Assembly: GCA_965153285.1 (NCBI GenBank) | Contig: OZ229116.1 | Reading direction: 5' to 3' (one strand) | DNA length: 64,000 nucleotides | Source of the DNA: Podarcis tiliguerta | Lineage: Eukaryota | Shown: positions 44,101 through 50,100 of the stretch, piece by piece | Numbering within the stretch: the stretch's first letter is position 1 | How the letters are laid out: each line of letters starts with the position of its first letter | Position numbers: made by a program

Positions 44101-47100
44101 AACCACATGGCTTCCCCAAGAGAACCTTGGGAACTGTAGTTTGTTAAGGGTGTTTGGAATTGCAAGTCTACAGTTCTCCAGATGCTTTGGGGCAGATCAT
44201 GTGCTTTAAATGTCTAGTGTGTTTGTGACCTAGGTTATTGGAAACTACTCCCAAAAGTATGTTTACTTTATGCCCATCTTTGCAGGTCACATCTATTCAT
44301 GGTTTAATTTCTCGATAGGACCGAATTATACCCACCCATCCTTTGTAGGCTATGCTATCTTTAACTACTTGGTCAGCTCACAAAGATGAGAACTGTAACT
44401 ATTTCAGAACTGTTTTAAAGCATCTGCATTATGAGGCCCACCAGGCTAAAATGACACCACCAAGCCCTCAGCAGCTCTTGAGCTCCTTGTGGCTTAAGCT
44501 GGCCTCATCTGCTGCCAACAAAGTTGCATTTGACCCATTTACACGATGTTTGTAGGAACTGATCTACTGTTTCATAATCACTGCAATTTTACAACACCAG
44601 CACTTTGACAAACCCCAGATCATCCCCGAATTTAAGTCTACTATCTCTCCCTCCCTGTTTGGCTATTCTCATACACTCTGATACACTGAGTAATTGGCCC
44701 TCAACACCATGACATGTGTCCTTTTAAACAATACATTAGACAATATCCAATGTCATGTGAGGAGTAGGGGTGGAAGTGGATGGGTAAGGCCTGTGTCAGA
44801 ACTGGACATCTGTTCCACAAGCAGGCTGACACTGTTGGTTGTCACCCTTAATACAGAGCAACAGTTCTAAAGCATCAAAGCAAAGGCAAACCGGGTAAGA
44901 TTTTCAGAAGTAACAAAGACAGCATTTCATGGACTGTTGAAAAAAGAATGGAACTGATCTGCATGTCTCAGCAAATCTCTAGAAAACCTGCAACCTATTC
45001 CACACTTTCAAGTTCAACAACAACCAGAACAAAACTACTTTTATCTTTCACATACGATAGCAGCTGGAAAATAACTCTGAGTGGCGTTCAACTAAGTTTT
45101 ACTCAGACTTATTCAAATGAATGGCTCCAATTTAGTGATGTTCATTAATTTTAAAGGATCTGCTCTCAGTAAAACTTAGTTGAATGCCACCCTCTATTTT
45201 AAAGATAGCTCTTCATTAATTCTGCAATGTAGAAAACTTGCAGCAAGTATTCTGTGGACCTTCATCAAATTTCTAACCCAAACTTAGTCTCCAATAACGG
45301 ACAATGCACATGAAAGAAAAGGAAAGCAAACGACAACAGATTCAGCAAGGGGGCTCACAAGCTTCAAACCCGTTTCTCAGAAACTGGCCAAATGCACATT
45401 CCAAAGGAAATCAACAACATCCCTTCAGTCATTTGCTGAGTATTTTTTTAAATGTTCTATGAACAACACTTGATTTGCCACTGCATCTCTGAAAAAGGGA
45501 CACACTCACCAAACCAATTAAGATGTGAATGGCATCAGCACCCTCATACAGCTCAGAGCACTATGTCCTTGGAAACAGGGTCCCAGGTGCATAACTGGGC
45601 AGGGAACAGATGCGCACAACACAGTGCTCCATGTGCCATTACCCTCTCTACGCGCTAAGCCTCTCTCTCCATGCACTACAAGTCCCATCATCCCTGGCCA
45701 TGCTTGCTGAGGCTGGTGGGAGTTGTAGTTCAGCAACATCTGGAGGGCCAAAGGTTTCTTTACACCTGCATCAAGTCCTTTCCTGAATACAAAAGTCCTA
45801 CCAATGAATTGCGGGGCAAGGTGGAGGATATTCAATTTCCAAACTTTTAACTTTTCTGCCAAACAGTCAAAGAACAGAATTTAAGTTTCATAAAAAAACA
45901 GAAGCTAAGCACAGACTTTTGCATCAGAGCCATCACCTGGGAATACATTCCATTGAAATCCGTAGGATTTGAGTTCCAAGTTGAAAGCTTATGGTCACTG
46001 CCAACTGAGGTGTGTGCAGAGAATTCCAACATTATTTTAGTGTCCCATTTTCAGCAGCTGACAACCCTTAAAAAATAAACTACTTGTCTACTATTTATTT
46101 TTCACCGCTCCCAATATGAAACTGGTACAGCTTCTTCTCTAGAGGGAAATGCATAAAATAAATGTGGGGTTAGGGACCCCCCCCCCCCCAGTTTGCAACC
46201 ATGGAAGAAAACTTTCTGATCCCAGAATGGCTGCAGCATATTAGAAATGTAGCCCACTAGAGAATACATCTCTACAATCAACCAACCAACCAACCAACCA
46301 TTAAAATAATAAAAAAAGTGAACTGATCTACTTACCCTTTTGCTATTCTGTCCTGCGCACAGAGGCAGTAGTAAATGTGATCTCTCCAGCTATACCATAG
46401 CTGCCTGCAAAGGGTGCTTTATCCCCAGCTCCTGAGCCCTTCTTCCCATTCATCACATCTTCCAGTGGTATGGCAACTGAAAGAAAAACTGGAGTTGGAG
46501 GCCTGCCGCTATCCTGTGCGGAGTTAAAATTGGGATTGGCCATTTTCGGATCTGCTGCCCTGGCAACTGGTACGGGTATCGTAGCGAACCTCCTCACAGT
46601 CCCGCCAGTATCCTGCTGTGCAAGGACAGCATGGCCAGGTATGGGTTTCCAGTCCTGTTTATTCTGAACAGAAGAGCCCACTAAAATGAAAGGTGGTGCA
46701 TTTCCCTTCTTCCCTTCTTCCATCATCACATAAGTTGGAGAGGACACTTGTGGTGGTTGGCCTTGTTGTAGCATCTGCGGCTGTAGATACTGCGGCTGGT
46801 CCTTACCACTAGATATGAATAGGGTTGCCTGGGGAACAGGAGCACCAGTTCCAACAGGTGGAAGGGGTGGTGGAGGTGGTGGTGACTTGCGACCTTGTTG
46901 ATGCATATCAGTTAGACAATAGAGAGTCCACACATTAGAATATGGTGGTGGTTGTCCTGGTTCGCTTGTTGCCATGGCTATAAAATAAAAATTTAAAGAA
47001 AATTTGCTGGCATGAAAGACCATCTAGTAGGATGTACGAACTGCAGTCACATTGCATAGCCTTACCCACAACTTTATGCCACAAAGAAAGGATGTTACAG

Positions 47101-50100
47101 AGAGGAGAGAATCCCTGAAGGCAAAAGGGAGGACCTTGGCATGGCTGAAATGGAGAACAGCAGAAGAACCGGTTCTCATAATTTTCGAAATAAATCCAAA
47201 GTATCAGATTCACAACTTTGGGGGGAAATTTTTGTCATTAGGTACTTCTGTTGGTTGTAAGGATACTGTTTTCGTATGGGTGACCCAAAGATCATGGGTT
47301 GAAAGTGTCTCCTCGACCACAAGTCCTGTCCAGCCATGCCAACCCTTTGTGTTCCTCTAACCCCTGTCCCCTTCGGCATTCTCTCTTCTGTAAGATGCTT
47401 CCAGACCTTACCTACCTACACCTCTCTAATGGGAAGTGACTCTAGGGAATAGTGTGCCATCGAAGGGCACACCAAGGCCATGGGAAAGGTGCTAGGAGAG
47501 CTTCTCCAGCTCGAGAACAGGAGTGGGCTACACACTTCTCACAGAGGGAGAGCAGAGAACGAGAGGAAACGGTGTCGCCATTGGAAGCCAATCCTCCAGC
47601 TGCAGCAAGATCGGCAGTTCTCAGCAAGAAGCGATTAGTCCCCTCTCTGTCAACAATCTGGAGAAGACCAGGCCTAATGGGACAGCCCAGGCAACCACCA
47701 CCATTTCTTTTAAATGCAAAAACCTAAGCAGTGCCATGGCTGAGCATCTGAATACTAGTTCGTTTTTAAAAAAACACAACCTGAAGCCACAGTCACCCAC
47801 ATCACTTTCTGCTAACCGTTGTGAGCATGTGTGTAATTTTGATTCAAGATGCATAGTCTATTGTGAGAGGGGCTAATCATGGTTTAAAGAAGGGCCAAAA
47901 GGCATTGGCCTAACTCCCCGCTGAATGTCATCCTGCTCCTGCCCAGTCTGCTTGCAGGAAATGATACAAGACTTGAGCAGAAAAATGGGGCAGCTGGCAC
48001 TCATGCAAGGTACGTTTTTGGGCCTACTCACAATCAACCATGCACCTGGAAAAAAACAGAGGCAAAAATTCCAGACATGCACATTCCAGTTAGGTGCTGT
48101 GGGCTCTGTAACTCCCTAAAAGCAAAAGCGACCAATCACTTATCTCAACACGGCACTGCCATAGATACTTGCATTTAAATAATTAAAGCTCCAGTCCCCA
48201 AGGCACTGTACCAGCACAAGGCCTTTGGGGTCACAACCACACCATTCATTTAAAGCACATGGCTTCCCCCACAAAGTCCTGGGAATTGTAGTTTAAGGGT
48301 GCTGGGGGCTCTGTGAGAGGTAAACTGCAGTTCCCAGTATGCTTTGTCGGGGGAGCCATGTGCTTTTAATGTACAGCGTGGGTGTGACCTCAGCCTCAGC
48401 TGAGCTATGGGCACAAGTGCATTTGAGGAGATGGAGCCATCTGTTGATTATGGAGCAATAATATCACTACAACATGGAATAGGCAGCTTTCAGAAATATC
48501 TTGACTTTCTTACCTGACATAATAAAACCTGGATCAGCTGACCTCAGTTCCTCTGCAGTATCCATCCTGTCAGGGTCACATTCTGCATCATCTGCAGATG
48601 GATCTAGAATACTAGCAAACTGACCTGCATTCTGCGAAGCCATCAGCGGATTAAAGAGACATGCTACAGTGTCTACGAAAGGAATTACTATCTGCTGCGG
48701 AAACTGCTCTACATACGGTGGTGGTTGGGGCTCTCCACCAGCATTGGGATCATCATCACACATGGGGGTGAGCTGTATGTCTGATGTGAGCTCAATTTCA
48801 CTTGAACAAGGTTCAGCCCGCAATGGGTCTTTATCAGGAGGAGGAGGTGGTGGTGGTGGCGGGGGCGGCTGTTCTTCCAGCAAGGGGTCTGAGGAATCTG
48901 GATCTGCTACGTCAGCAGGTGGCTGCTCAGCCTGACTGCCTGAGGTAACTACCTCCCCAGGAGCAGAGGTGTGGCTTTGAGTGGCGGACCCAGGCCTGAG
49001 AGAGTGTACAGAAGCTGCAGGGGCAGCAGGCTCTGCTTCTGCAGGGGCAGCAGGCTCTGCTTCTGCTTCTGCAGGTGCAGCAGGCTCTGCTTCCTCGGGG
49101 GCAGGCTCTGGTTCTGCGGGGGCAGGTTCCGGTTCCGCAGAGGCAGGTTCCGGTTCCACGGGGGCAGGTTCTGGTTCTGCAGGGGCAGGTTCTGGTTCTG
49201 CAGGGGTAGGTGGTTCCTCTTCTGCAGGGGCAGGCACTACTTCCGATGGGGCAGGTTCCGGTGCGGGTGAGGGTGGCGGGGCCTCTGTGACTGAAGCAGC
49301 AAGGTTCTCTACACTTTGGGATGAGGTAGGGAGTGTCTGCACTGAGACCGCCACATCCTTCAGTTCAGCTTCGGAAGAAACAGGTTCAACTTTACCTAGC
49401 ATCTGGGATGCCAGCTGGGCTGGATCGGCCGGGACGTAGGCGAGCCCAGCTCCCTTTTCGTCCCCAGCCCTGTCTACAAACTCGTCCACGGTCGATGGGT
49501 ACTGGGTTGTCTTGGTGCACTGTTCACGGCGTGGTTCTTCACTTATCTGGTCCTCTTCTGTGTCAGTCGATTTCTCCTTCCGTTTCGGTTCGTCACTCAT
49601 CGGAGCCGTCGTGTCCACCTCTGGCCTATATGCATCTCCCACGTCAGCCCTTTTGCGGGGCACCTGTGCCGCTCCTGCTGTCCCTTCTGCCCATCCTTCC
49701 ACTGCAGGGTGAACAGGAAACAAGGTTAAACAGCTTTCTCCTCAAAGCGCTTTCTCTCTCTCTTTCTCTCTAAGCCACCAACTTGCAGTTGCTTAAAGCC
49801 ACCAACTTCCAAGTCCAGTTTGAAAAGCTTAACACTTATTTATTAATTGCTGGGAGACTCAATGAACGGCTAACATGGAGCTTGTGAAACGTTGAGGTTG
49901 TTCCATACATTCAACTGTCAGATAGTGTCCACTTGTCATTTCAAGGCTGCACAATAGGAGCCGGTTTTCTGCAATTCCCCAAAGACTGGATTTTAAAAAT
50001 ACTTTCACTTTATAATTTAAATGCTGAACAGGAAATGTCATAATGACCTAGACAACATTAATCCCTTTCCATAAAACCACTTATTTCCTTTGGAGAGGGG

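What the first reader, a model, noticed from the sequence alone, without database searches (positions are those of the whole stretch)
46343..49701. CABYR CR-A can splice in frame into CR-B, with no separating stop
Known (from memory): mammalian CABYR mRNA has coding regions CR-A and CR-B separated by a stop, so CR-B is reached only by cutting CR-A short at an internal donor. Seen here: CR-A is open up to a strong phase-1 donor (ATG TCA G|GTAAGA, 48514) and the CR-B acceptor is phase 1 (ag|CC ATG, 46977), giving ...GFIMS-A-MATSE and a single protein of about 674 aa with RIIa, whole acidic region and CR-B. Inference: this may be the ancestral single-ORF form, with the mammalian split derived.
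Basis: partly seen in the sequence, partly recalled or inferred. Interest (0 to 1): 0.65.

Follow-up and report, generated by a model that had tools for sequence, protein, structure and literature searches.

The report
Lizard CABYR has one reading frame
This is the ordinary sperm-tail gene CABYR of a wall-lizard-like reptile, whose two halves join in frame with no stop between them, as they also do in public gene models of other reptiles, birds and many mammals, so the split into two coding regions described for human and mouse looks like a later change confined to some mammal lineages.

Summary
On the minus strand the big CABYR exon (49701-48514) ends ATG TCA G|gtaaga. The last exon (46977-46343) begins ag|CC ATG GCA. 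Both sites are phase 1, so the junction reads GFIMS-A-MATSE and the four coding exons sum to 674 codons.

It is not new. The same junction peptide is in annotated CABYR models of 14 sauropsids. An equivalent read-through (GLMEP-A-IAASE) is in 31 mammalian models.

The stop between CR-A and CR-B is not a general mammalian feature. In the models seen it sits in the last dozen codons of the big exon in rodents, lagomorphs and primates, and apparently independently in elephant and horse.

The donor at 48514 has a second in-frame partner, an internal acceptor at 46476, giving about 507 aa. This form is modelled in 12 sauropsid species, including the only lacertid RefSeq-style model seen. Whether the 674-aa form is the main product here needs RNA data.

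The parts
53867..53941 (-). Part of the probable non-coding first exon of CABYR (5' UTR), in a G+C-rich stretch. Its borders were not determined.
   Evidence: tblastn of the chimeric Podarcis lilfordi model P0024, residues 570-594, 92% identity. That model reads this exon as coding because it runs on from TTC39C. In the CABYR models the protein starts at the Met of the next exon.
52506..52688 (-). First coding exon. The ATG is at 52653-52651, with 49 codons plus one base. It encodes the RIIa dimerisation/docking domain. The donor is GAA G|gtttgc, phase 1.
   Evidence: Sequence; splice context; Pfam RIIa PF02197, E=2.7e-10, residues 12-44; N-terminus MHT.KPRMVVPYGLKTLLEGVSRAVLK shared with the squamate models.
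52269..52322 (-). Small 54-nt coding exon (D-HPNLDIKDLVREFHMTR-), phase 1 at both ends. It can be skipped in frame.
   Evidence: Sequence. Present in most homologues. Skipped in Zootoca X2 (P0123) and Varanus X2 (P0124).
48514..49701 (-). Big exon, 1188 nt, phase 1 at both ends, 395 whole codons. It is acidic and Pro/Ala-rich: pI 4.05, 81 D+E, 73 Pro. It corresponds to the bulk of 'CR-A'.
   Evidence: Homology search: 74.6% identity to Rhineura and 71.5% to Pogona over the whole exon.
49015..49262 (-). Tandem repeats inside the big exon. A 21-nt period has 6.3 copies at 49080-49211, with 24/30/42/63-nt rows overlapping it. They encode (E)PEPAPA-type heptads.
   Evidence: Tandem Repeats Finder; translation. 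Copy number differs among the squamate models.
49394..49396 (-). Internal phase-1 donor, CAG ATG CTA G|gtaaag, with the last exon base at 49396. Joined to 46977 it gives the short form of about 380 aa (...QML-A-MATSE).
   Evidence: It is the only phase-1 GTRAG/GTAAA site inside the exon. The QML/QTL-A junction is in 74 of 119 named models. One of these is the Podarcis lilfordi model P0024, which is 100% identical to the window over 102 residues up to this donor.
48591..48593 (-). Internal phase-1 acceptor in the big exon, ...catctgcag|AT GAT GCA GAA, with the first base at 48591. Together with donor 49396 it would remove most of the acidic region as an intron within the exon.
   Evidence: Sequence. 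The junction QML-D-DAECDPD is used in one named model, Pantherophis guttatus X3, P0139.
46978..48513 (-). Intron of 1536 nt between the big exon and the last exon. Read-through gives GKKVKIFLKAAYSML and then TAG at 48469-48467.
   Evidence: No D-A-x-N-D type alternative terminal exon motif was found in any frame. One ATTAAA lies at 48370.
46343..46977 (-). Last coding exon ('CR-B'). It starts with CC, followed by 210 codons, and ends with TAG at 46345-46343. It is basic (pI 9.04) and is the best-conserved part of the protein.
   Evidence: Identity is 96% to Rhineura, 76% to turtle and alligator, 68% to kiwi and 57-58% to mammals over all 210 residues.
46476..46478 (-). Internal phase-1 acceptor in the last exon, ...agtttttctttcag|TT GCC ATA CCA, with the first base at 46476. 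Joined to donor 48514 it gives ...GFIMS-V-AIPLEDVMNGKK...RRTE, about 507 aa, without most of CR-B.
   Evidence: Sequence and pyrimidine tract. The junction is used in 13 named models of 12 sauropsid species, among them Zootoca vivipara X2, and in Pantherophis X3.

Best explanation
The stretch is the 3' half of the CABYR orthologue of a lacertid lizard (Podarcis or a close relative). [quoted passage not shown]

Every coding intron is phase 1 and the two middle exons are symmetrical, so every exon or sub-exon combination stays in frame. No stop lies between the acidic 'CR-A' part and the conserved 'CR-B' part.

- The straight exon-to-exon mRNA encodes one protein of 674 codons: RIIa, then the acidic Pro/Glu/Ala-rich region, then CR-B.
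- Donor 49396 joined to 46977 gives about 380 aa.
- Donor 48514 joined to acceptor 46476 gives about 507 aa.
- One more pair (49396 to 48591) is used in a single snake model.

Shown: the sites, phases and open frames in this window, and the use of each junction in named gene models of other species.

Inferred: that this lizard makes these mRNAs, and in what proportions.

The 'two coding regions separated by a stop' described for human and mouse is best read as in-frame nonsense codons acquired within the last dozen codons of the big exon in some mammalian lineages. It is not an ancestral bicistronic-like design.

By analogy with mouse, the RIIa domain would dock the protein on AKAP3/AKAP4 (yeast two-hybrid result in PMC3398308, passages read), with the acidic region and CR-B as the cargo parts.
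For: - Sites, phases and frames.
- RIIa domain.
- CR-B exon alone finds CABYR of squamates (90-96% identity), turtles, alligator, birds and mammals at E from 1e-126 to 1e-55.
- The big exon alone finds the same gene.
- Back-to-back alignment of the two window exons, with one residue between, in 4 of 4 squamate long models tested.
- Of the 119 named CR-B-bearing proteins, 45 join the end of the big exon to CR-B (14 sauropsid, 31 mammalian) and 74 join QML/QTL to CR-B.
- The exon end is homologous residue for residue between turtles (AEQGFIMS|A) and mammals (PEQGLMEP|A).
- Among the 53 named mammalian proteins analysed:
  - 14 genera read through.
  - 15 Glires proteins and 3 strepsirrhine proteins end ...V at the same alignment place.
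  - 9 anthropoid proteins end two to three codons earlier.
  - Elephas and Equus caballus end at other places nearby.
- Mouse cDNA has TGA TGA plus six in-frame nucleotides between CR-A and CR-B (PMC3398308, passage read).
- 4 of 7 distant unnamed relatives have RIIa at residues 12-48 and CR-B homology near the C-terminus.
- Identity to Podarcis lilfordi P0024 is 98-100% over the CABYR exons.
Against: - All comparative evidence is from predicted gene models (mostly NCBI 'isoform X' names). I could not see their transcript support, and no RNA data for this species were available.
- No lacertid long-form model appeared, although it would have ranked at the top. The only lacertid models seen are Zootoca X2 (the 46476 acceptor form) and the Podarcis lilfordi chimera (short form).
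- In Thamnophis the model named X1 is the 46476 form.
- The placing of the mammalian stops rests on where protein models end, not on nucleotide alignments.
- Marsupials are represented by one short-form model only (P0068). Monotremes, ruminant long forms and named amphibians were not seen.
Confidence: 0.85

Rival explanations
1. In this lizard the donor at 48514 is joined mainly or only to the internal acceptor at 46476. The usual long product would then be about 507 aa (RIIa, acidic region, last 43 residues of CR-B), and the 674-aa protein would be rare or absent.
For: - 13 of the 15 proteins fetched (12 species) carry GFIMS-V-AIPL[ED]...
- These include the only lacertid RefSeq-style model seen (Zootoca X2) and Thamnophis 'X1'.
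- The acceptor has a clean pyrimidine tract, tttttctttcag.
- No lacertid long form was found.
Against: - Pogona has all three forms modelled: X1 long, X2 with the 46476 acceptor, X3 short.
- 14 sauropsid models use 46977 after the exon end.
- The skipped 167 codons of CR-B are the most conserved part of the gene, and the short form alone may not explain that.
- Both forms are in frame, so this rival changes proportions, not the reading-frame finding.
Confidence: 0.35
2. A CR-A-only protein is made here too, by retention of the intron after 48514 (tail GKKVKIFLKAAYSML, stop at 48469-48467). This would be a functional counterpart of the human and mouse CR-A product.
For: - The tail has the same length, and its first eight residues are identical, in an unnamed snake-like contig ORF, P0128 (GKKVKIFLNPSYSRL).
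- Two mammalian database models read into the intron with a similar start: Rousettus ...GKKIRYLQS and Ailuropoda ...GKKTRDLQN.
- One ATTAAA lies about 100 nt past the stop.
Against: - P0128 also reads the upstream intron as protein, so it is an ORF called on unspliced or genomic sequence, not evidence of a mature mRNA.
- GKK is simply the translation of a consensus donor, G|GTAAGAAA.
- No named squamate model ends this way among the 39 hits.
- Conservation next to an alternatively used donor can reflect splicing control.
Confidence: 0.15
3. One reading: the single frame is a sauropsid (ancestral) peculiarity, and mammals as a class have the stop and reach CR-B only through the internal donor.
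For: - Human and mouse literature describes CR-A and CR-B separated by stop codons (PMC3398308).
- All rodent, lagomorph and primate CR-B-bearing models are the short form.
Against: - 31 mammalian models, and 14 genera, read from the exon end into CR-B. They include Trichechus, Echinops, Choloepus, Dasypus, Ceratotherium, Pteropus, Phyllostomus, Glossophaga, Molossus, Artibeus, Canis, Panthera, Crocuta and Camelus.
Confidence: 0.05

Closest known systems
Annotated CABYR isoforms of other squamates, e.g. Pogona vitticeps X1 (684 aa), X2 (494 aa) and X3 (382 aa); Rhineura floridana X2 (632 aa); Liasis olivaceus (657 aa)
   Same: - Same gene and same exon ends.
- Same junction peptides: GFIMS-A-MATSE, GFIMS-V-AIPLED and QML-A-MATSE.
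- 71-75% identity in the big exon and 93-96% in the last exon.
   Different: - The number of PEPAPA-type repeats differs.
- For this window no transcript evidence is at hand, and no long-form model from a lacertid was seen.
Mouse and human CABYR with coding regions CR-A and CR-B (Li et al. 2010, PMC3398308, passages read; Naaby-Hansen et al. 2002 and Sen et al. 2003 known to me only through that paper's text and from recall)
   Same: - RIIa domain.
- Acidic middle part with shared blocks: EKSTDTEED, AYVPADPAQ.A.QML, QIVIPF.
- CR-B at 57-58% identity to three non-rodent, non-primate mammalian models; no mouse or human protein was compared.
- The short isoform through the QML donor.
   Different: - Mouse has TGA TGA just before the end of the big exon, so the long mRNA stops after CR-A. 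The window has sense codons there.
- The mammalian big exon carries roughly 110 more residues between QIVIPF and the exon end, and lacks the PEPAPA repeats.
Long CABYR models of non-Euarchontoglires mammals, e.g. Trichechus X1 (695 aa), Ceratotherium X1 (693 aa), Panthera tigris X1 (710 aa)
   Same: Uninterrupted frame from RIIa through the end of the big exon into CR-B, with the same split Ala codon.
   Different: - Ile instead of Met after the junction.
- The 46476-type junction was not seen in any mammalian model examined.

Membership tests
CABYR orthologues | N-terminal RIIa (PKA RII-alpha-like dimerisation/docking) domain | tested here: met
   Pfam PF02197, E=2.7e-10, 40.2 bits against a cut-off of 22.4, on the first coding exon.
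CABYR orthologues | C-terminal CR-B region homologous to named CABYR proteins | tested here: met
   The last exon alone gives 221 hits. The best 120 were listed, and all of those that carry a source name are CABYR or CABYR-like. E=1e-126 for Rhineura and about 1e-58 for mammals, at 100% query cover.
CABYR orthologues | Acidic middle region with the conserved blocks shared by named CABYR proteins | tested here: met
   The big exon alone finds squamate, turtle and alligator CABYR. blastp to Trichechus, Panthera and Ceratotherium gives 27-30% identity, E from 1e-17 to 1e-23. pI is 4.05.
CABYR orthologues | Conserved neighbourhood: TTC39C immediately upstream on the same strand | tested here: met
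   The TTC39C-like part of the chimeric Podarcis lilfordi model maps to 63602-63483, 63320-63153 and 60958-60821 on the minus strand. That TTC39C is the neighbour in human is recalled, not tested.
CABYR orthologues | Testis expression, fibrous-sheath location, calcium binding and tyrosine phosphorylation at capacitation | not testable with these tools
   No expression or biochemical data for this species. The properties are known from mammals (PMC3398308; PMC11276731, passages).
Two-coding-region CABYR architecture (CR-A, stop, CR-B) as described for human and mouse | In-frame stop codon(s) at the end of the big exon, separating CR-A from CR-B in the unshortened mRNA | tested here: not met
   The frame is open up to donor 48514 and continues in phase into 46977.
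Two-coding-region CABYR architecture (CR-A, stop, CR-B) as described for human and mouse | CR-B reached through an internal donor that shortens CR-A (QML junction) | tested here: met
   Donor CTA G|gtaaag after 49396, phase 1. The junction is used in the Podarcis lilfordi model, which is identical to the window up to that point.

The most novel reading that the evidence does not exclude
The famous two coding regions of CABYR are not a gene design but the result of repeated, independent nonsense mutations within the last dozen codons of one exon. The events would be:

- one in the stem of Euarchontoglires (shared ...V-stop in Glires and strepsirrhines);
- a second, earlier one in anthropoids;
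- separate ones in elephants and in horses.

Every lineage keeps CR-B through the short QML isoform. Recurrent uncoupling of the acidic half from CR-B would point to relaxed need for, or selection against, the full-length fusion in some mammals. Reptiles such as this lizard keep the undivided protein. I found no paper stating this in the searches.
Probability: 0.45. Interest if true: 0.4.

Novelty: already known. Interest (0 to 1): 0.2.

Why it matters
For the window itself it matters little. It is a normal orthologue whose isoform junctions are already present in public annotation of related species.

The useful by-product is a correction for people who work on CABYR. The CR-A/CR-B terminology from human and mouse should not be carried over to other vertebrates. 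Antibody or knockout designs that treat the two regions as separate products would not fit species where they form one polypeptide.

The distribution of the stop codons could be turned into a short evolutionary note on a fast-evolving sperm protein.

Tried and rejected
- Pfam on the big exon and the last exon found no family. Only RIIa on the first coding exon matched.
- I looked in the 1536-nt intron for a stop-bearing alternative terminal exon like the one some mammalian models use after the same donor (Tamandua, Suricata, Felis...EP|DA.ND..*). No such motif occurs in any frame. This does not exclude an unrelated exon.
- I tried to name the distant representatives with the listing of cluster members. 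The tool answered that its database is switched off, so their taxa stay unknown and I use them only as unnamed relatives.
- The human paper PMC3739192 is not held. The human exon structure is therefore taken only from what PMC3398308 says, and from ape and monkey models.
- Literature searches for any treatment of the origin of the CR-A/CR-B split, or of reptile or bird CABYR (passages read), found none. Subscription papers and supplements were not visible.
- ORFs of 95 codons or more in 1-46000 showed nothing that looked like a further gene, and I did not pursue this.
- I considered that the Met after the junction might be a separate CR-B start. I rejected this because the residue is Ile or Leu in all mammalian models and Leu in Heteronotia.
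- No binding, structure or complex prediction was run, because none bears on the question.

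
Full report
**What is there.**
The finding lies on the minus strand.
- The big exon starts after ...accctgcag at 49701. It runs open for 395 whole codons and ends ATG TCA G|gtaagaaag, with its last base at 48514.
- The last exon starts after ...tttattttatag at 46977 with CC ATG GCA ACA AGC GAA. It runs 210 codons to TAG at 46345-46343.
- Both sites are phase 1, so the split codon G+CC is Ala and the junction reads GFIMS-A-MATSE.
- Upstream lie a coding exon with the start codon (ATG 52653, donor after 52506) and a 54-nt exon (52322-52269), both with phase-1 donors.
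- The first coding exon carries an RIIa domain (Pfam PF02197, E=2.7e-10).
- Read-through of the donor meets TAG at 48469-48467 after 15 codons.
- The window holds no N.
- The joined protein was never built or submitted, so nothing here rests on a search or fold of the spliced product.

**Identity and source.**
- The last exon alone finds CABYR of squamates (Rhineura 96%, Pogona 93%, Liasis 92% identity), turtles, alligator, birds and mammals (about 57%), all at 100% cover.
- The big exon alone finds the same gene in squamates, turtles and alligator.
- A chimeric TTC39C-CABYR model of Podarcis lilfordi (P0024) maps onto the window at 98-100% identity over the CABYR exons. Its TTC39C part maps to 60.8-63.6 kb on the same strand.
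- The window is therefore from a Podarcis-like lacertid lizard. It is not human sequence.

**Is the junction real?**
- In four named squamate long models the window's two exons align back to back with exactly one residue between them: Rhineura 69-423/425-632, Pogona 69-472/474-684, Liasis 69-447/449-657, Heteronotia 70-419/421-628.
- I examined 119 named CR-B-bearing proteins. One unnamed row was left out.
  - 45 join the end of the big exon to CR-B (14 sauropsid, 31 mammalian).
  - 74 join an internal QML/QTL donor to CR-B. Two rows the pattern missed were read by eye.

**The mammalian side.**
- Li et al. [quoted passage not shown] The two regions are therefore in one frame.
- I searched with the C-terminal half of the CR-A part of the manatee long model (72 hits).
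- I analysed the 53 named, non-duplicate proteins. Eleven further felid isoforms and eight unnamed rows were set aside.
- Fourteen genera read straight through as ...PEQGLMEP-A-IA[AT]SEAGQPPPY: Trichechus, Echinops, Choloepus, Dasypus, Ceratotherium, Pteropus, Phyllostomus, Glossophaga, Molossus, Artibeus, Canis, Panthera, Crocuta and Camelus.
- Fifteen Glires proteins (13 genera) end ...EQV, and three strepsirrhine proteins end ...DKV at the same alignment place.
- Nine anthropoid proteins end ...AE two to three codons earlier.
- Elephas ends ...APE, and Equus caballus ends ...IEPE where rhinoceros has Trp.
- Galeopterus, Psammomys, Nomascus and Saimiri have odd ends.
- Three models (Tamandua, Suricata, Felis) go from the same donor into a short stop-bearing exon.
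- Two models (Rousettus, Ailuropoda) read into the intron.
- One model (Herpailurus X1) lacks the CR-B start pattern.
- An alignment shows the exon end to be homologous between turtles (AEQGFIMS|A) and mammals (PEQGLMEP|A).
- The uninterrupted frame is therefore the shared state of sauropsids and of three of the four placental superorders sampled. The stops are local nonsense changes in Euarchontoglires, elephant and horse. This is an inference from where protein models end, not from nucleotide alignments.
- 4 of 7 distant unnamed representatives also have RIIa at residues 12-48 and CR-B homology near the C-terminus of one protein. Their taxa could not be looked up.

- Donor 48514 has a second in-frame partner: an internal acceptor in the last exon (...tttttctttcag|TT GCC ATA, first base 46476).
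- The resulting junction GFIMS-V-AIPLED..., which drops 167 codons of CR-B, is in 13 of the 15 proteins fetched. They come from 12 species: Zootoca, Varanus, Pogona, Python, Gekko, Paroedura, Ahaetulla, Thamnophis, Laticauda, Dermochelys, Chrysemys and Pelodiscus.
- The internal donor after 49396 (CTA G|gtaaag) is the only phase-1 donor-like site inside the big exon. It gives the short form of about 380 aa, which is conserved from lizards to marsupials and placentals.
- One snake model (Pantherophis X3) joins that donor to an acceptor inside the big exon (window 48591).
- All coding introns are phase 1 and the middle exons are symmetrical, so every combination stays in frame. This is the simple mechanical reason for the many CABYR isoforms.
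- The Met after the junction is not a start signal of CR-B. It is Ile or Leu in all mammalian models and Leu in Heteronotia.

**What stays open.**
- All comparisons are with predicted models whose transcript support I could not see.
- No lacertid long-form model appeared, although it would have ranked first. The only lacertid models seen are Zootoca X2 (46476 form) and the Podarcis lilfordi chimera (short form).
- So the in-frame compatibility is certain. The existence of the 674-aa protein in sauropsids is well supported by models. Its share in this species is unknown.
- The read-through tail (GKKVKIFLKAAYSML) has a same-length counterpart with eight identical leading residues in an unnamed snake-like contig ORF (P0128). 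That ORF also reads the upstream intron, so it is not evidence of a mature transcript. The likeness may reflect a conserved intron start.

**Novelty.**
- The gene, its exon ends and all its junctions are already in public annotation of related species, so I rate the feature as already known.
- I found no paper on the origin of the CR-A/CR-B split or on reptile CABYR (passages). Subscription papers and supplements were out of reach.
- The lineage-restricted and apparently recurrent stops are a modest side result that may be unpublished.

Noticed in passing
window 49015-49262 (minus strand, inside the big exon): Tandem repeats of 21 nt (6.3 copies at 49080-49211) and related periods encode PEPAPA/EAEPAAPA heptads. 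Their number differs widely among the squamate CABYR models. One gecko model is even named 'fibrous sheath CABYR-binding protein-like', presumably because of this low-complexity stretch.
   Followed up: partly
window 48513-48467 (start of the intron after the big exon): The first 45 nt of the intron translate to GKKVKIFLKAAYSML-stop. An unnamed snake-like contig ORF (P0128) has GKKVKIFLNPSYSRL-stop, the same length. Two mammalian models that read into the intron begin GKKIRYLQ and GKKTRDLQ. This may be a conserved intron start next to an alternatively used donor, or a conserved retained-intron tail.
   Followed up: partly
window 60821-63602 (minus strand): The last exons of TTC39C lie upstream of CABYR on the same strand. 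A public Podarcis lilfordi protein model (929 aa) fuses TTC39C, the CABYR 5' UTR exon (53867-53941) read as coding, and the short CABYR form. It looks like a read-through annotation artefact.
   Followed up: partly
window 40933-40995 (minus strand): The same Podarcis lilfordi model ends in a 21-residue exon about 5.3 kb downstream of the CABYR stop. It is reached after leaving CR-B early and passing a tiny exon that overlaps the CABYR stop codon in another frame. It is probably spurious or 3' UTR splicing.
   Followed up: no
window 46975-46973 (Met codon after the junction): The 'start' Met of CR-B is conserved in most sauropsid models. It is Leu in Heteronotia and Ile or Leu in every mammalian model seen, so CR-B has no conserved initiator of its own.
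   Followed up: yes
related proteins P0148, P0163, P0166 (Tamandua, Suricata, Felis): In these mammals a model joins the same big-exon donor to a short alternative terminal exon (...EP|DA.ND..-stop), giving a CR-A-only protein without any stop in the big exon. No such motif was found in the lizard intron.
   Followed up: partly
window 53470-54040: A G+C-rich stretch with long open frames on both strands lies around the probable first CABYR exon. It may be a CpG-island-type promoter.
   Followed up: no
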